Assembly (NCBI RefSeq): GCF_030013205.1
Contig: NZ_CP122648.1
Direction: 5' to 3' (one strand)
Source: Escherichia coli
GTDB lineage: Bacteria > Pseudomonadota > Gammaproteobacteria > Enterobacterales > Enterobacteriaceae
Length of the DNA: 64,000 nucleotides
A model generated the notes under the pieces. It did no database searches, had not been told where the DNA came from, and saw only the letters and a list, made by a program, of their open reading frames with translations. Numbering within the stretch: position 1 is the first letter of the stretch; every line of letters starts with the position of its first letter. Position numbers and translations under genes: made by a program. Positions 1-32,570 of the stretch are shown here, piece after piece.

Positions 1-1207
1 TGCCCGTTGTCGAAAGCCAACTGGTCAGATTGCTGCCGATGGTGGTTGTGATGCCGGTTTTTTTACCATCGCCAACAATCAATGCACCTACGCCGCTGGC
101 ATCTTTTTTCAGTGCAGCGGTGAGTTTGTCGGCATCCAGCTCCAGTTTGCCATCGCTGGGATCGGTCGTGATACCAATCTGCGCCAACGTTTTATAGTTG
201 GAAGAACTAACGGTATTACTCAGCATCGATTTCAACTGCGTCTGAATCGTCCGCAGCGTGGAGTCGCCGAGCAGTGCGCCATTGCTAGAACTCTGGCTAT
301 CAGCTCCCGCATCTACGGCGGTGTATTTGGTCAGGCTGCTGAAGGTATCTATTAGCGAGTTATAGGCATTCACCCAGTCTTTAATCGCCGTTTGCGCTTT
401 GGAGGTGTCCTGAGTGATGGTCAGCGTCTGGTTGCCCGTGGTGACATCGTTCAGGTTCAGGGTGATGTTTTCCAGCGCGTCGCTGATGGTGTTGCTGCTG
501 TTCTCGATGGCGACGTTGTTGACCGTCAGCTGCGCATTCTGAGCGGCGACCGAGACCTCCATGCCGTTGCTGCTGGCACTGGCGTCATAGCCCATAAAAC
601 TTTGTAGCGCATCATCACCGCTAACCGAGAGTGTCATCGCATTGTCAAGGCCGGTGTCATTTGATGTAACTGACAGACGATATTCACCGTTACCCACGTT
701 AATGATGCTCGCGCTAACACCCGCTTTTGCGTTGTTGATGGCATCACGGATCCCGCTTAACGATGAGTTAGCCGCGCTGATATCAATGGTAATCGGATCT
801 TTGTCGCCGCCTTGTTGAATGGTGAGTTTGCTGTCGCTGGTGGCGATCGCCGTTTTCGTATCATCTCTGGTGGTGCGCGTGGTCAGGGTTTGCGCCTGCG
901 CCAGATGGGTGACGCTGATGGTGTATTTCCCGGCGATGGCGTTACCCGCGGTGGTGGCACTGAACGCGGTGGTGCTGCTGGTAGTGCTGGTGGCGGAAAA
1001 AAGATCGGCTTTAGACAATGCAGTATTGGCGGTCTGGAAAGTCGTCAGCGCGCTTTTCAGCGTACCGTAGGCGCTAAGTTTAGCGGTAAACGACGATTGC
1101 TGATTTGAAATAGGGGTTAGCGTCGCTTTTTGCGCGGCGGTGAGGCTATCAAGGATTGAACTTAAATCCAGGCCTGACCCGACTCCCAGCGATGAAATAC
1201 TTGCCAT
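1..1207 (-). CDS. fliD: flagellar filament cap protein FliD, N-terminal part (3' end lies beyond window start)
   Basis: Reverse-strand translation from ATG at 1205-1207 reads MASISSLGVGSGLDLSSILDSLTAAQKATLTPISNQQSSF..., which I recognise as FliD; frame stays open to position 1. Confidence 0.93.
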   Translation of the reverse strand, partial: MASISSLGVGSGLDLSSILDSLTAAQKATLTPISNQQSSFTAKLSAYGTLKSALTTFQTANTALSKADLFSATSTTSSTTAFSATTAGNAIAGKYTISVTHLAQAQTLTTRTTRDDTKTAIATSDSKLTIQQGGDKDPITIDISAANSSLSGIRDAINNAKAGVSASIINVGNGEYRLSVTSNDTGLDNAMTLSVSGDDALQSFMGYDASASSNGMEVSVAAQNAQLTVNNVAIENSSNTISDALENITLNLNDVTTGNQTLTITQDTSKAQTAIKDWVNAYNSLIDTFSSLTKYTAVDAGADSQSSSNGALLGDSTLRTIQTQLKSMLSNTVSSSNYKTLAQIGITTDPSDGKLELDADKLTAALKKDASGVGALIVGDGKKTGITTTIGSNLTSWLSTTG

Positions 1208-1250: not shown

Positions 1251-1277
1251 TTATCGGCCTGAATTGCGCAAAGTTTA
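1251..1277 (-). promoter_or_regulatory. sigma28 (FliA) class 3 promoter for fliD
   Basis: Minus-strand reading gives TAAA-N15-GCCGATAA, a perfect flagellar sigma28 consensus, about 45 nt upstream of the fliD ATG. Confidence 0.7.
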
Positions 1278-1369: not shown

Positions 1370-1396
1370 TAAAGGTTGTTTTACGACAGACGATAA
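1370..1396 (+). promoter_or_regulatory. sigma28 (FliA) class 3 promoter for fliC
   Basis: TAAA at 1370-1373, 15-nt spacer, CGATAA at 1391-1396 (gaCGATAA vs GCCGATAA consensus), about 75 nt upstream of fliC ATG. Confidence 0.7.
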
Positions 1397-1472: not shown

Positions 1473-3260
1473 ATGGCACAAGTCATTAATACCAACAGCC
1501 TCTCGCTGATCACTCAAAATAATATCAACAAGAACCAGTCTGCGCTGTCGAGTTCTATCGAGCGTCTGTCTTCTGGCTTGCGTATTAACAGCGCGAAGGA
1601 TGACGCCGCAGGTCAGGCGATTGCTAACCGTTTTACTTCTAACATTAAAGGCCTGACTCAGGCTGCACGTAACGCCAATGACGGTATTTCTGTTGCACAG
1701 ACCACTGAAGGCGCGCTGTCCGAAATCAACAACAACTTACAGCGTATCCGTGAACTGACGGTTCAGGCTTCTACCGGGACTAACTCTGATTCGGATCTGG
1801 ACTCCATTCAGGACGAAATCAAATCCCGTCTGGACGAAATTGACCGCGTATCCGGTCAAACCCAGTTCAACGGTGTGAACGTACTGGCGAAAGACGGTTC
1901 GATGAAAATTCAGGTTGGTGCGAACGACGGCCAGACTATCACGATTGATCTGAAGAAAATTGACTCAGATACGCTGGGTTTGAATGGTTTTAACGTGAAT
2001 GGTTCCGGTACGATAGCCAATAAAGCGGCGACCATTAGCGACCTGACAGCAGCGAAAATGGATGCTGCAACTAATACTATAACTACAACAAATAATGCGC
2101 TGACTGCATCAAAGGCGCTTGATCAACTGAAAGATGGTGACACTGTTACTATCAAAGCAGATGCTGCTCAAACTGCCACGGTTTATACATACAATGCATC
2201 AGCTGGTAACTTCTCATTCAGTAATGTATCGAATAATACTTCAACAAAAGCAGGTGATGTAGCAGCTAGCCTTCTCCCGCCGGCTGGGCAAACTGCTAGT
2301 GGTGTTTATAAAGCAGCAAGCGGTGAAGTGAACTTTGATGTTGATGCGAATGGTAAAATCACAATCGGAGGACAGGAAGCCTATTTAACTAGTGATGGTA
2401 ACTTAACTACAAACGATGCTGGTGGTGCTACTGCGGCTACGCTTGATGGTTTATTCAAGAAAGCTGGTGATGGTCAATCAATCGGGTTTAATAAGACTGC
2501 ATCAGTCACGATGGGGGGAACAACTTATAACTTTAAAACGGGTGCTGATGCTGGTGCTGCAACTGCTAACGCAGGGGTATCGTTCACTGATACAGCTAGC
2601 AAAGAAACCGTTTTAAATAAAGTGGCTACAGCTAAACAAGGCACAGCAGCTGCAGCTAACGGTGATACATCCGCAACAATTACCTATAAATCTGGCGTTC
2701 AGACGTATCAGGCGGTATTTGCCGCAGGTGACGGTACTGCTAGCGCAAAATATGCCGATAATGCTGACGTTTCTAATGCAACAGCAACATACACAGATGC
2801 TGATGGTGAAATGACTACAATTGGTTCATACACCACGAAGTATTCAATCGATGCTAACAACGGCAAGGTAACTGTTGATTCTGGAACTGGTACGGGTAAA
2901 TATGCGCCGAAAATAGGGGCTGAAGTATATGTTAGTGCTAATGGTACTTTAACAACAGATGCAACTAGCGAAGGCACAGTAACAAAAGATCCACTGAAAG
3001 CTCTGGATGAAGCTATCAGCTCCATCGACAAATTCCGTTCATCCCTAGGTGCTATCCAGAACCGTCTGGATTCCGCGGTCACCAACCTGAACAACACCAC
3101 TACCAACCTGTCTGAAGCGCAGTCCCGTATTCAGGACGCCGACTATGCGACCGAAGTGTCCAACATGTCGAAAGCGCAGATCATCCAGCAGGCCGGTAAC
3201 TCCGTGTTGGCAAAAGCTAACCAGGTACCGCAGCAGGTTCTGTCTCTGCTGCAGGGTTAA
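1473..3260 (+). CDS. fliC: flagellin FliC, 595 aa, conserved N/C termini with long variable central domain
   Basis: ORF translation begins MAQVINTNSLSLITQNNINKNQSALSSSIERLSSGLRINSAKDDAAGQAIANRF and ends ...SVLAKANQVPQQVLSLLQG, the conserved flagellin termini; central region is T/A/G/N-rich and unlike the K-12 allele. Confidence 0.96.
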   Translation: MAQVINTNSLSLITQNNINKNQSALSSSIERLSSGLRINSAKDDAAGQAIANRFTSNIKGLTQAARNANDGISVAQTTEGALSEINNNLQRIRELTVQASTGTNSDSDLDSIQDEIKSRLDEIDRVSGQTQFNGVNVLAKDGSMKIQVGANDGQTITIDLKKIDSDTLGLNGFNVNGSGTIANKAATISDLTAAKMDAATNTITTTNNALTASKALDQLKDGDTVTIKADAAQTATVYTYNASAGNFSFSNVSNNTSTKAGDVAASLLPPAGQTASGVYKAASGEVNFDVDANGKITIGGQEAYLTSDGNLTTNDAGGATAATLDGLFKKAGDGQSIGFNKTASVTMGGTTYNFKTGADAGAATANAGVSFTDTASKETVLNKVATAKQGTAAAANGDTSATITYKSGVQTYQAVFAAGDGTASAKYADNADVSNATATYTDADGEMTTIGSYTTKYSIDANNGKVTVDSGTGTGKYAPKIGAEVYVSANGTLTTDATSEGTVTKDPLKALDEAISSIDKFRSSLGAIQNRLDSAVTNLNNTTTNLSEAQSRIQDADYATEVSNMSKAQIIQQAGNSVLAKANQVPQQVLSLLQG

Positions 3261-3303
3261 TCGTTGTAACCTGATTAACTGAGACTGACGGCAACGCCAA
3301 ATT

Positions 3304-3403
3304 GCCTGATGCGCTGCGCTTATCAGGCCTACAAGTTGAATTGCAATTTATTGAATTTGCACATTTTTGTAGGCCAGATAAGGCGTTTACGCCGCATCCG
3401 GCA
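3304..3403. repeat. REP/BIME element (two inverted REP units) in fliC 3' region
   Basis: gcctgatgcgctgcgcttatcaggcctac ... gtaggccagataaggcgtttacgccgcatccggca, typical E. coli REP palindromes. Confidence 0.75.
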
Positions 3404-3433
3404 ACATAAAGCGCAATTTGTCAGCAACGTGCT

Positions 3434-3457
3434 TCCCCGCCACCGGCGGGGTTTTTT
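3434..3457 (+). terminator. rho-independent terminator downstream of fliC
   Basis: GC hairpin ccccgccaccggcgggg followed by tttttt. Confidence 0.7.
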
Positions 3458-3499
3458 CTGCATGGAATTTACCGGTAACCCCCAAATACCCCCTCATTT

Positions 3500-3579: not shown

Positions 3580-4299
3580 GTGAATTCACTCTATACCGCT
3601 GAAGGTGTAATGGATAAACACTCGCTGTGGCAGCGTTATGTCCCGCTGGTGCGTCACGAAGCATTGCGCCTGCAGGTTCGACTGCCCGCGAGCGTGGAAC
3701 TTGACGATCTGCTACAGGCGGGCGGCATTGGGTTACTTAATGCCGTCGAACGCTATGACGCCCTACAAGGAACGGCATTTACAACTTACGCAGTGCAGCG
3801 TATCCGTGGCGCTATGCTGGATGAACTTCGCAGCCGTGACTGGGTGCCGCGCAGCGTGCGACGCAACGCGCGTGAAGTGGCACAGGCAATAGGGCAACTG
3901 GAGCAGGAACTTGGCCGCAACGCCACGGAAACTGAGGTAGCGGAACGTTTAGGGATCGATATTGTCGATTATCGCCAAATGTTGCTCGACACCAATAACA
4001 GCCAGCTCTTCTCCTACGATGAGTGGCGCGAAGAGCACGGCGATAGCATCGAACTGGTTACTGATGATCATCAGCGAGAAAACCCGCTACAACAACTGCT
4101 GGACAGTAATCTGCGCCAGCGGGTGATGGAAGCCATCGAAACGTTGCCGGAGCGCGAAAAACTGGTATTAACCCTCTATTACCAGGAAGAGCTGAATCTC
4201 AAAGAGATTGGCGCGGTGCTGGAGGTCGGGGAATCGCGGGTCAGTCAGTTACACAGCCAGGCCATTAAACGGTTACGCACTAAACTGGGTAAGTTATAA
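3580..4299 (+). CDS. fliA: flagellar sigma factor sigma28 (FliA), 239 aa, GTG start
   Basis: Translation from GTG 3580 reads (M)NSLYTAEGVMDKHSLWQRYVPLVRHEALRLQ...; ORF-track N-terminal extension trimmed to the conserved start. Confidence 0.93.
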   Translation: MNSLYTAEGVMDKHSLWQRYVPLVRHEALRLQVRLPASVELDDLLQAGGIGLLNAVERYDALQGTAFTTYAVQRIRGAMLDELRSRDWVPRSVRRNAREVAQAIGQLEQELGRNATETEVAERLGIDIVDYRQMLLDTNNSQLFSYDEWREEHGDSIELVTDDHQRENPLQQLLDSNLRQRVMEAIETLPEREKLVLTLYYQEELNLKEIGAVLEVGESRVSQLHSQAIKRLRTKLGKL

Positions 4300-26737: not shown

Positions 26738-27316
26738 ATGAGTGAAAAAAGCATTGTTCAGGAAGCGCGGGATATTCAGCTGGCAATGGAATTGATCACC
26801 CTTGGCGCTCGTTTGCAGATGCTGGAAAGCGAAACACAGTTAAGTCGCGGACGCCTGATAAAACTCTATAAAGAACTGCGCGGAAGCCCACCGCCGAAAG
26901 GCATGCTGCCATTCTCAACCGACTGGTTTATGACCTGGGAACAAAACGTTCATGCTTCGATGTTCTGTAACGCATGGCAGTTTTTACTGAAAACCGGCTT
27001 GTGTAATGGCGTCGATGCGGTGATCAAAGCCTACCGTTTATACCTTGAACAGTGCCCGCAAGCAGAAGAAGGACCGCTGCTGGCATTAACCCGTGCCTGG
27101 ACATTGGTGCGGTTTGTTGAAAGTGGATTACTGCAACTTTCCAGCTGCAACTGCTGCGGCGGCAATTTTATTACCCACGCTCACCAGCCTGTTGGCAGCT
27201 TTGCCTGCAGCTTATGTCAGCCGCCATCCCGGGCAGTAAAAAGACGTAAACTTTCCCAGAATCCTGCCGATATTATCCCACAACTGCTGGATGAACAGAG
27301 AGTACAGGCTGTTTAA
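26738..27316 (+). CDS. flhC: flagellar master regulator subunit FlhC, 192 aa
   Basis: [70 protein letters not shown]... with C-terminal Cys cluster. Confidence 0.95.
27247..27273 (+). promoter_or_regulatory. sigma28 class 3 promoter of motA-motB-cheA-cheW, located inside the 3' end of flhC
   Basis: TAAA (27247-27250), 15-nt spacer, GCCGATAT (27266-27273); one mismatch to TAAA-N15-GCCGATAA. Confidence 0.6.
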
Positions 27317-31802: not shown

Positions 31803-32510
31803 TTGTGCACAGAAAACCCCCAGCTAGGCTGGGGGTTCCGGAAAGCTTTCAGCTTTGAGCCAGTTATTAAAACCCCTTTTGATTTGTTAAAACACCTTGC
31901 GGTCTGGCAACTGCAAGTGTCAAACAAGAAATCAAAAGGGGGTCCCAATGGGGAACGAAAAGAGCTTAGCGCACACCCGATGGAACTGTAAATATCACAT
32001 AGTTTTTGCGCCAAAATACCGAAGACAAGTGTTCTACAGAGAGAAGCGTAGAGCAATAGGCAGTATTTTGAGAAAGCTGTGTGAGTGGAAAAGCGTACGG
32101 ATTCTTGAAGCTGAATGCTGTGCAGATCATATCCATATGCTTGTGGAGATCCCGCCCAAAATGAGCGTATCCGGCTTTATGGGATATCTGAAAGGGAAAA
32201 GCAGTCTGATGCTTTACGAGCAGTTTGGTGATTTGAAATTCAAATACAGGAACAGAGAGTTCTGGTGCAGAGGGTACTACGTCGATACGGTGGGTAAGAA
32301 CACGGCGAAGATACAGGATTACATAAAGCACCAGCTTGAAGAGGATAAAATGGGAGAGCAGTTATCGATTCCCTATCCGGGCAGCCCGTTTACGGGCCGT
32401 AAGTAACGAAGTTGGATGCAAATGTCAGATCGTGTGCGCCTGTTAGGGCGCGGCTGGTAAGAGAGCCTTATAGGCGCATTTGAAAAACCTCCGGCTATGC
32501 CGGAGGATAT
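31803..32510 (+). mobile_element. IS200-like insertion sequence (IS200/IS605 family), about 0.7 kb, boundaries approximate
   Basis: Single tnpA gene flanked by subterminal hairpins (cccccagc-tag-gctggggg at 31817-31835; cctccggc-tat-gccggagg at 32488-32506); extra DNA between the cheW terminator and the tar promoter; no terminal inverted repeats or target duplication seen, as expected for this family. Confidence 0.65.
31948..32406 (+). CDS. tnpA: IS200-type Y1 (HuH) transposase TnpA, 152 aa
   Basis: MGNEKSLAHTRWNCKYHIVFAPKYRRQVFY...CCADHIHMLVEIPPKMSVSGFMGYLKGKSS...RNREFWCRGYYVDTVGKN: HuH motif (HIH) and catalytic Tyr region typical of IS200 TnpA; ORF-track start at 31897 trimmed. Confidence 0.92.
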   Translation: MGNEKSLAHTRWNCKYHIVFAPKYRRQVFYREKRRAIGSILRKLCEWKSVRILEAECCADHIHMLVEIPPKMSVSGFMGYLKGKSSLMLYEQFGDLKFKYRNREFWCRGYYVDTVGKNTAKIQDYIKHQLEEDKMGEQLSIPYPGSPFTGRK

Positions 32511-32543: not shown

Positions 32544-32570
32544 TAAAGTTTCCCCCTTCCTTGCCGATAA
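32544..32570 (+). promoter_or_regulatory. sigma28 class 3 promoter of tar-tap-cheRBYZ
   Basis: Perfect TAAA-N15-GCCGATAA (TAAA 32544-32547; GCCGATAA 32563-32570), about 30 nt upstream of tar ATG and downstream of the IS200-like element. Confidence 0.75.

What the first reader, a model, noticed from the sequence alone, without database searches (positions are those of the whole stretch)
1473..3260. fliC allele of 595 aa with a long, divergent central domain (non-K-12 H antigen)
The N-terminal ~175 and C-terminal ~100 residues are the conserved flagellin D0/D1 segments. The central ~320 residues (roughly nt 2000-2950) are a T/A/G/N/S-rich surface domain unlike the 498-aa K-12 flagellin. This is the serotype-determining region; a 595-aa length would fit H1/H12-type alleles, but I cannot confirm that from memory.
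Basis: partly seen in the sequence, partly recalled or inferred. Interest (0 to 1): 0.4.

Follow-up and report, generated by a model that had tools for sequence, protein, structure and literature searches.

The report
Known H1 flagellin gene (fliC)

Summary
The ORF is exactly as described: 1473..3260 (+), ATG to TAA, 595 aa, with Pfam Flagellin_N, FliC and Flagellin_C domains. Its ends are conserved with K-12 fliC (gene nt 1-527 at 88.8%, nt 1516-1788 at 93.4%). The middle (window 2000-2987, about 329 aa) has no detectable DNA similarity to K-12, is 61% T/A/G/N/S, and has GC3 of 27.6% against 55-63% in the ends.

The gene is 100% identical to fliC of strains labelled O139:H1. It carries the H1 state at all six published H1/H12-diagnostic residues (E302, N340, G361, T391, N396, N430). 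It matches the published H1 PCR oligos perfectly and mismatches the H12 probe at 3 positions. Its four differences from Nissle 1917 H1 (T258, A393, A431, I481) are those of the published O139:H1 sub-cluster, as far as Table S1 was read.

The central region occurs in only 202 of 5,426 complete E. coli genomes, with no intermediates. Its closest solved relatives are the sheath-forming three-outer-domain flagellins (EHEC H7, Azotobacter, Achromobacter). A crystal structure of the Nissle H1 protein has been reported in a preprint. The promoter, terminator and FliX 3'UTR sRNA are intact.

Verdict: confirmed, interpretation supported and refined to H1 rather than H12, already known, low interest.

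The parts
1..1207 (-). fliD (filament cap), 5' part; divergently transcribed neighbour, cut by the window start
   Evidence: Annotated fliD in the collinear loci of W13-16 and ETEC4079. The window is 99.997% identical to ETEC4079.
1251..1277 (-). sigma-28-type promoter match for fliD (TAAACTTT-N11-GCCGATAA, 1 mismatch)
   Evidence: Pattern search found 4 matches in the window against 0.05 expected by chance. All 4 lie upstream of flagellar or chemotaxis operons.
1370..1396 (+). sigma-28-type (class 3) promoter match for fliC: TAAAGGTT-N11-GACGATAA, 2 mismatches to consensus, ending 76 nt before the ATG
   Evidence: The whole fliD-fliC intergenic region is 263/265 identical to K-12, and these positions are invariant in K-12, Nissle and an H12 strain.
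1473..3260 (+). fliC coding sequence, 595 aa plus stop; H1 allele, O139:H1 sub-type (RefSeq protein WP_063086318.1)
1473..1997 (+). Residues 1-175: N-terminal D0 (1-47) and D1 (48-175) helices of the filament core
   Evidence: Pfam Flagellin_N; 90% identical to K-12. Domain limits are taken from the constructs used for the Nissle H1 crystal structure. The model has helices at 6-101 and 106-129.
1998..2966 (+). Residues 176-498: hypervariable outer region carrying the H antigen. D2 is 176-207 plus 452-498; D3 and D4 lie in 208-451 (window 2094-2825).
   Evidence: No DNA similarity to K-12. Found in only 202 of 5,426 genomes. GC3 is 27.6%. Homologous to the outer domains of H7, Azotobacter and Achromobacter flagellins. 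Domain limits.
2376..2762 (+). Span containing the six H1/H12-diagnostic codons (302, 340, 361, 391, 396, 430), all in the H1 state, inside D3/D4
   Evidence: Four of the six, plus sub-type residues 393 and 431, fall in the three low-confidence loops of the model.
2967..3257 (+). Residues 499-595: C-terminal D1 (499-554) and D0 (555-595) helices
   Evidence: Pfam Flagellin_C at 508-593; 93.4% nt identity to K-12 from gene nt 1516. The model has helices at 507-558 and 567-594.
3264..3457 (+). fliC 3'UTR, homologue of the K-12 FliX small RNA (two differences in about 195 nt)
   Evidence: K-12 annotation of ncRNA fliX directly after fliC; alignment A3. FliX function is described in PMC10578931.
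3325..3412 (.). REP-type palindromic elements inside the 3'UTR
   Evidence: Rfam ES036 at 3325-3366 (-), 42.9 bits against a gathering score of 37.6. A naRNA4-like match at 3372-3412 is below threshold. The FliX paper notes REP sequences downstream of fliC.
3435..3461 (+). Intrinsic terminator: CCCCGCC-ACC-GGCGGGG followed by a T run
   Evidence: Conserved in K-12, Nissle and an H12 strain.
3580..4299 (+). fliA (sigma-28), the sigma factor that reads the fliC promoter; intact
   Evidence: Annotated fliA in the collinear loci. The ORF ending at 4299 is.

Best explanation
This is the chromosomal flagellin gene fliC of an E. coli strain essentially identical to the Belgian pig isolate ETEC4079. 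It encodes the H1 flagellar antigen in the sub-variant typical of O139:H1 edema-disease strains.

How it most likely works:
1. FliA (sigma-28), encoded just downstream, transcribes fliC from a class-3 promoter at 1370-1396.
2. Transcription stops at the hairpin at 3435-3451, and the 3'UTR can be processed into the FliX small RNA.
3. The 595-aa protein is exported and polymerises under the FliD cap.
4. The conserved terminal helices (D0/D1, residues 1-175 and 499-595) form the filament core, which also holds the TLR5-recognised surface.
5. Residues 176-498 fold into three outer domains (D2, D3, D4) held off the core by a rigid linker. They cover the filament, carry the H1 epitopes, and probably pack into an outer-domain sheath as in H7 flagella, which tunes swimming in viscous media.

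Shown here: gene integrity, allele identity, domain homology, and conservation of the regulatory sequence. Taken from the literature: structure and motility effects for Nissle H1, and sheath formation for H7. Inferred: expression in this strain and sheath formation for H1.
For: - Intact 595-aa ORF with Flagellin_N, FliC and Flagellin_C domains.
- 100% nt identity to fliC of O139:H1 strains W13-16 and P15-25 and of at least 12 further pig isolates.
- The window as a whole is 99.997% identical to ETEC4079 and 99.98% or better to W13-16, in the normal fliD-fliC-fliA-fliZ context.
- All six H1/H12-diagnostic residues are in the H1 state.
- H1 and H1/H12-common oligos match with 0 mismatches; the H12 probe has 3.
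- A393 and A431 match the paper's O15:H1 and O139:H1 sequences in Table S1. 258, 431 and 481 are the positions the paper lists as variable within H1. T at gene nt 402 is the state found in 4 of its 13 H1 strains.
- Sigma-28 motif: 4 hits in the window against 0.05 expected, all at flagellar or chemotaxis operons.
- The 5' region is 263/265 identical to K-12. The 3'UTR/FliX and terminator are conserved.
- Outer region is homologous to H7, Azotobacter and Achromobacter flagellins by sequence (E 3e-26 to 1e-37). It is also homologous by fold (Foldseek E 2e-48 to 4e-33, against about 1e-21 for Salmonella FliC).
- A crystal structure of Nissle H1 FliC, 4 residues different, shows D2-D3-D4 plus a rigid linker, with motility effects on deletion.
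- The H7 sheath is described in PMC8931119.
Against: - Nothing in the sequence argues against the identification.
- H type is defined serologically, and neither expression nor motility was observed.
- By raw nucleotide distance the allele is only slightly nearer Nissle H1 (31 differences) than H12 (40 differences). The H1 call therefore rests on the diagnostic residues and on identity to strains deposited as H1.
- Sheath formation has been shown for H7, H6 and Achromobacter. For H1 it is only modelled.
- The structure model is of moderate quality (mean pLDDT 74.8, pTM 0.50).
Confidence: 0.96

Rival explanations
1. It is an H12 allele. H12 is the serologically cross-reacting sister type of the same length.
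For: The length is the same (595 aa), and the protein differs from two strains labelled H12 at only 9 residues, with 40 nt differences. A431 is shared with H12. H1 and H12 cross-react serologically.
Against: All six positions that separate every studied H1 from every H12 allele carry the H1 residue. The H12 probe has 3 mismatches and the H1 probe has none. Identical genes sit in strains deposited as O139:H1.
Confidence: 0.02
2. The gene is intact but is not what determines the phenotype. Either the strain is non-motile (H-), or it expresses a different flagellin from another locus (flkA/fllA/flmA-type) while fliC is repressed.
For: Expression was not measured. The rest of the genome is outside the window. 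A few complete genomes hold two places matching this gene. An IS200C sits between cheW and tar in this strain.
Against: - The promoter, terminator, fliA, fliZ, fliD, flhDC, motAB, che genes and flhBAE are all present and collinear with W13-16.
- The window differs from W13-16 at only 7 positions plus the IS.
- The IS200C lies upstream of an intact consensus tar promoter.
- O139 strains with this allele were serotyped as H1.
Confidence: 0.05
3. It is a new H-antigen type, or a recombinant (mosaic) central domain not previously described.
For: The centre has atypical codon usage (GC3 27.6%), which indicates foreign origin at some time in the past. It has four substitutions relative to Nissle H1.
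Against: The whole gene is 100% identical to deposited genes. A393 and A431 are already in the published Table S1, and 258 and 481 are listed in the paper as H1-variable positions. The central region forms one tight class, 98.5% identical or more in the rows shown, in 202 genomes.
Confidence: 0.01

Closest known systems
fliC-H1 of O139:H1 edema-disease E. coli (e.g. W13-16, P15-25, ETEC4079; protein WP_063086318.1; the O139:H1 sequences LN877755-58 of Beutin et al. 2016)
   Same: Identical nucleotide sequence over all 1788 nt, and the same genomic context. A393 and A431 match the published sequences in Table S1.
   Different: Nothing in the gene. Compared with W13-16, this strain has an extra IS200C 28 kb away and 7 point differences across 64 kb.
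fliC-H1 of ExPEC and probiotic B2 strains (Nissle 1917, CFT073, ATCC 25922, LF82)
   Same: 595 aa, the same six H1-diagnostic residues, and 99.3% protein identity. A crystal structure shows D1 to D4 with a rigid D1-D2 linker.
   Different: 31 nt differences and 4 amino-acid differences (A258T, V393A, T431A, V481I). The 3'UTR here resembles K-12 rather than Nissle.
fliC-H12 (e.g. O68:H12 97.3, O128ac:H12 AW1.7; reference Bi316-42)
   Same: 595 aa, the same domain layout, about 98.5% protein identity, and serological cross-reaction.
   Different: Lys/Lys/Asp/Lys/Asp/Lys at 302/340/361/391/396/430 instead of Glu/Asn/Gly/Thr/Asn/Asn. There are 40 nt differences, including those under the H12 probe.
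H7 flagellin of EHEC O157:H7 (PDB 7sn4), with the Azotobacter (9n59), Achromobacter (7sqd) and EPEC H6 (7sn7) outer-domain-sheath flagellins
   Same: Full-length homology (E 4e-192 to 7sn4). The outer region aligns throughout (E 3e-26). These are the best fold matches (E 2e-48, 61% identity overall). All have three outer domains D2-D4 on a linker.
   Different: The outer-domain sequence is much diverged, and blastn finds no similarity. H1 is 10 residues longer than H7. Dimer or tetramer sheath packing has been shown for these proteins but not yet for H1.
K-12 H48 flagellin (498 aa; PDB 8cxm) and Salmonella FliC (1ucu)
   Same: D0/D1 core about 90% identical to K-12. The promoter, 5'UTR, 3'UTR/FliX and terminator are the same as in K-12.
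   Different: The outer region is about 97 residues longer and unrelated at the DNA level. According to PMC8931119, sheath-type D2/D3 folds have no similarity to Salmonella D2/D3.

Membership tests
Bacterial flagellin (FliC/FljB family) | N-terminal helical region (Pfam PF00669) and C-terminal helical region (PF00700) above the curated thresholds | tested here: met
   158.3 bits against a cutoff of 26.6, and 109.6 bits against a cutoff of 23.
Bacterial flagellin (FliC/FljB family) | Located at the fliC locus, divergent from fliDST and upstream of fliAZ, with a sigma-28 promoter | tested here: met
   Context. Promoter motif at 1370-1396, with 4 hits against 0.05 expected. The 5' region is 263/265 identical to K-12.
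Bacterial flagellin (FliC/FljB family) | Assembles into a filament and supports motility | not testable with these tools
   Needs a motility assay or electron microscopy. Shown for the 99.3%-identical Nissle protein.
E. coli fliC H1 genotype | 1788-nt / 595-aa gene matching the H1/H12-common assay target | tested here: met
   Length confirmed. The three common oligos match with 0 mismatches at the published positions 1329, 1364 and 1395.
E. coli fliC H1 genotype | H1 state at residues 302 E, 340 N, 361 G, 391 T, 396 N, 430 N | tested here: met
   All six are in the H1 state.
E. coli fliC H1 genotype | H1-specific probe matches and H12-specific probe does not | tested here: met
   H1 probe 0 mismatches; H12 probe 3 mismatches.
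E. coli fliC H1 genotype | Agglutination with H1 antiserum (the serological definition) | not testable with these tools
   Strains with the identical gene are deposited as O139:H1. O139:H1 strains were serotyped in PMC4753304.
E. coli fliC H12 genotype | Lys302, Lys340, Asp361, Lys391, Asp396, Lys430 | tested here: not met
   None of the six is in the H12 state.
Outer-domain-sheath flagellins (H7 / H6 / Achromobacter type) | Three outer domains D2-D3-D4 homologous to those of the solved sheath filaments | tested here: met
   The outer region alone hits 9n59, 7sn4 and 7sqd (E 1e-37 to 6e-26). The Foldseek top hits are 7sn4, 9n59, 7sn7 and 7sqd. The Nissle H1 crystal structure reports D2-D4.
Outer-domain-sheath flagellins (H7 / H6 / Achromobacter type) | Outer domains dimerise or tetramerise on the filament to form a sheath | not testable with these tools
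   Requires cryo-EM of H1 filaments. So far there are only models in the Nissle preprint.

The most novel reading that the evidence does not exclude
The O139:H1-type sub-allele (T258, A393, A431, and I481 in the pig lineage) might be more than neutral drift. Six of the ten H1/H12 or sub-type variable residues sit in three predicted flexible loops of D3/D4. The sub-allele could therefore define a distinct serological H1 sub-factor, or alter sheath packing or host antibody recognition in pig-adapted strains.
Probability: 0.1. Interest if true: 0.25.

Novelty: already known. Interest (0 to 1): 0.07.

Why it matters
The practical value is limited to typing and provenance. The gene identifies the strain's flagellar genotype as H1, of the kind carried by O139:H1 pig edema-disease and ETEC isolates. 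Together with the rare cheW-IS200C-tar junction, it ties the window to a lineage essentially identical to the Belgian pig isolate ETEC4079.

The locus also shows the textbook pattern of a conserved polymerisation core around a horizontally acquired, low-GC3 surface module. It belongs to the structurally interesting class of flagellins with three outer domains. Allele, sub-allele, structure and regulation are all already published, so no open question is advanced.

Tried and rejected
1. Raw identity as an H1/H12 discriminator. It proved weak (31 versus 40 nt differences), so I relied on the diagnostic residues and probes.
2. A 'distant' blastn search for intermediate relatives of the central region in E. 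coli. It returned the same 202 genomes and nothing in the 65-95% band. Other H types are therefore too diverged at the DNA level for this route.
3. Internal duplication among the outer domains. BLASTP of the outer region against itself gave only the self-hit. DNA direct repeats are short. They explain a natural deletion variant but not a domain duplication.
4. Rfam scan of the locus. It found only REP-derived families (ES036 above threshold, naRNA4 below), and no FliX family was reported. FliX was identified from the K-12 annotation and an alignment instead.
5. The sigma-70 promoter scan found nothing meaningful upstream of fliC, as expected for a sigma-28 gene.
6. Overlapping ORFs inside fliC (2416-2616 +, 2708-3106 -) were treated as chance ORFs. 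They have no annotation in any collinear genome.
7. The apparent discrepancy at residue 393, which is not listed as variable in the paper's text, was resolved by reading Table S1. The table does show A393 in the O15:H1 and O139:H1 sequences.
8. The word-indexed protein search did not list a full-length H1/H12 cluster representative or H7. Only its hits outside E. coli and the two deletion variants were used.

Full report
**Observation**

The window has an ORF at 1473..3260 on the + strand, ATG to TAA, 595 codons. Pfam finds three domains:
- Flagellin_N at residues 5-140 (E 1.6e-46)
- Flagellin_C at 508-593 (E 9.6e-32)
- the enterobacterial central family PF12445 'FliC' at 333-499 (E 5e-16)

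Compared with K-12 flagellin (498 aa), residues 1-185 are 90% identical and the last ~90 residues are nearly identical. Residues ~186-432 do not align. At the DNA level only gene nt 1-527 (88.8%) and nt 1516-1788 (93.4%) align.

The divergent block is therefore window 2000-2987, about 329 aa. Its right boundary (2950) is ~37 nt short, and the conserved C-terminus is ~90 residues rather than ~100.

The outer region is 61% T/A/G/N/S, against 45% in the ends. Its third-position GC is 27.6%, against 54.9% and 62.9% in the two ends. That is the usual mark of a horizontally acquired central module.

**Identity**

A megablast search of 5,426 complete E. coli genomes finds the conserved ends in 5,373 of them. 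The whole gene is found in only 201, and the central 951 nt in only 202. A more sensitive blastn search adds nothing: all rows shown are at least 98.5% identical, and nothing falls between 65 and 95%. The H1/H12 centre is therefore a discrete class.

At least 14 genomes are 100% identical over all 1788 nt. They include two deposited as O139:H1 (wild boar W13-16, pig P15-25). The rest are pig isolates. The annotated product is WP_063086318.1, 'FliC/FljB family flagellin'.

**H1 or H12**

I aligned the window's protein with Nissle 1917 (O6:K5:H1) and two strains labelled H12. The proteins differ at ten positions. At the six positions where Nissle differs from both H12 strains (302, 340, 361, 391, 396, 430), the window has the H1 residue.

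Beutin, Delannoy and Fach 2016 (PMC4753304) report exactly these six positions as separating all 13 H1 alleles from all 8 H12 alleles they studied. They also report that all 21 genes are 1788 nt / 595 aa.

An in-silico run of their two-step PCR gave these results:
- 0 mismatches for the three H1/H12-common oligos
- 0 mismatches for the three H1-specific oligos
- 3 mismatches for the H12 probe
- 1 mismatch for the H12 reverse primer

Raw distance alone is a weak discriminator: 31 nt differences from Nissle H1 and 40 from H12. Most differences in the conserved ends are synonymous.

**Sub-allele**

Relative to Nissle, the window has A258T, V393A, T431A and V481I.
- The paper lists 258, 431 and 481 as the positions that vary within H1.
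- Its Table S1 shows A393 and A431 in the O15:H1 sequence and the four O139:H1 sequences, although the text omits 393.
- T at gene nt 402 is the state the paper reports for 4 of its 13 H1 strains.
- A human isolate (THO-008) has the same protein except V481.
- I481 is seen here in the pig and wild-boar genes that are 100% identical to the window.

**Structure and likely mechanism**

The best solved relative over the full length is 7sn4, the EHEC O157:H7 filament (E 4e-192, residues 1-595 against 1-585). The outer region alone hits three structures:
- 9n59, Azotobacter vinelandii filament (E 1e-37)
- 7sn4 (E 3e-26)
- 7sqd, Achromobacter (E 6e-26)

An AlphaFold2 model built on a 42-sequence alignment has mean pLDDT 74.8, with most outer-domain blocks at 80-94. 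Foldseek places 7sn4, 9n59, 7sn7 and 7sqd on top (E 2e-48 to 4e-33). Salmonella FliC is far behind, at ~1e-21.

Kreutzberger et al. 2022 (PMC8931119) showed that these flagellins have three outer domains (D2-D4). The domains dimerise or tetramerise into an outer-domain sheath that changes waveform and tumbling.

A 2026 preprint (10.64898/2026.03.27.714778) reports the crystal structure of Nissle H1 FliC. From its constructs:
- D0 is residues 1-47 and 555-595
- D1 is 48-175 and 499-554
- D2 is 176-207 and 452-498
- D3 and D4 lie within 208-451

The preprint describes a rigid ~30 Å D1-D2 linker. Deleting the linker or D4 affected motility but affected TLR5 recognition only moderately.

All six H1/H12-diagnostic residues lie in D3/D4. 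Six of the ten variable residues fall in the model's three low-confidence loops (358-365, 389-397, 420-432). The expected number is 0.93 (hypergeometric P = 6e-5). This fits surface epitopes, although low pLDDT there may partly reflect variability in the alignment.

That H1 filaments form a sheath is an inference from homology.

**Regulation**

- The sigma-28 consensus TAAAGTTT-N11-GCCGATAA, allowing up to 2 mismatches, occurs four times in the window against 0.05 expected. The sites are upstream of fliD (1251-1277, -), fliC (1370-1396, +), motA (27247-27273) and tar (32544-32570).
- The fliD-fliC intergenic region is 263/265 identical to K-12.
- The 3'UTR (3264-3457) differs at two positions from the K-12 FliX small RNA. 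FliX is a sigma-28-dependent, Hfq-bound 3'UTR RNA that lowers flagellin and flagellar gene expression when overexpressed (PMC10578931).
- The 3'UTR contains REP elements (Rfam ES036) and ends at a GC-rich hairpin with a T run (3435-3451).
- fliA, fliZ, flhDC, motAB, the che genes and flhBAE are all present, and the region is collinear with an O139:H1 genome.

**Distribution beyond E. coli**

The outer region has homologues at 37-50% identity in Pantoea, Atlantibacter, Erwinia, Rahnella, Kluyvera, Enterobacter, Salmonella enterica (including subsp. diarizonae), Achromobacter and Pusillimonas. Together with the low GC3, this supports the standard view that the central module moved horizontally.

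**Provenance**

The window is 99.997% identical (1 mismatch, 1 gap) and fully collinear with ETEC4079, from Belgian pig faeces. It differs from W13-16 at 7 positions plus a ~705-nt IS200C insertion.

**Verdict**

The gene, its sub-allele, its structure class and its regulation are all already described. Interest is low.

Noticed in passing
window 31805-32509 (tnpA ORF 31948-32406, +): An IS200C element (Y1 transposase, Pfam PF01797, E 4e-38) is inserted between cheW and tar, just upstream of the intact consensus sigma-28 tar promoter at 32544-32570. It is absent from the otherwise near-identical O139:H1 strain W13-16. Among 5,426 complete genomes, the same junction occurs at 100% identity only in ETEC4079, at 99.2% in two pigeon strains, and at 98.3% in one pig strain.
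   Followed up: yes
whole window 1-64000: The window is collinear with and 99.997% identical to E. coli ETEC4079 (NZ_CP122643.1, about 2143727-2207725, pig faeces, Belgium). Apart from the IS200C, it differs from O139:H1 W13-16 at only 7 positions: 5252, 7229, 10614, 17256 (1-nt indel), 25887, 29790 and 63246.
   Followed up: yes
window 3264-3457: The fliC 3'UTR is a near-exact copy of the K-12 FliX small RNA (2 differences). It matches the K-12 version rather than the Nissle/H12-strain version at several variable sites. The allele-specific H1 centre therefore sits between K-12-like flanks.
   Followed up: partly
window 2415-2434 and 2547-2566 (inside fliC): Two 20-nt direct repeats at 90% identity lie 132 nt (44 codons) apart. 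A database E. coli flagellin (P0004, 551 aa, H1-type) lacks exactly residues 319-362, as expected from deletion between these repeats. Another (P0002, 571 aa, H12-type) lacks residues 396-419. Both deletions are in-frame and inside D3/D4.
   Followed up: partly
window 1998-2966 (fliC outer region): Third-position GC is 27.6%, against 54.9% and 62.9% in the two conserved ends and 50.4% overall GC for the window. This sharp compositional island is confined to the outer-domain codons.
   Followed up: yes
PMC4753304, text versus Table S1: The paper's text lists positions 258, 431 and 481 as variable within H1. Its Table S1 also shows V/A variation at residue 393 (A in the O15:H1 and O139:H1 sequences). 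The window has A393.
   Followed up: yes
window 27247-27273 and 1251-1277: Sigma-28 consensus matches lie upstream of motA (+ strand) and fliD (- strand). Together with the fliC and tar sites they give 4 hits against 0.05 expected, so the window carries four recognisable class-3-type promoters.
   Followed up: partly
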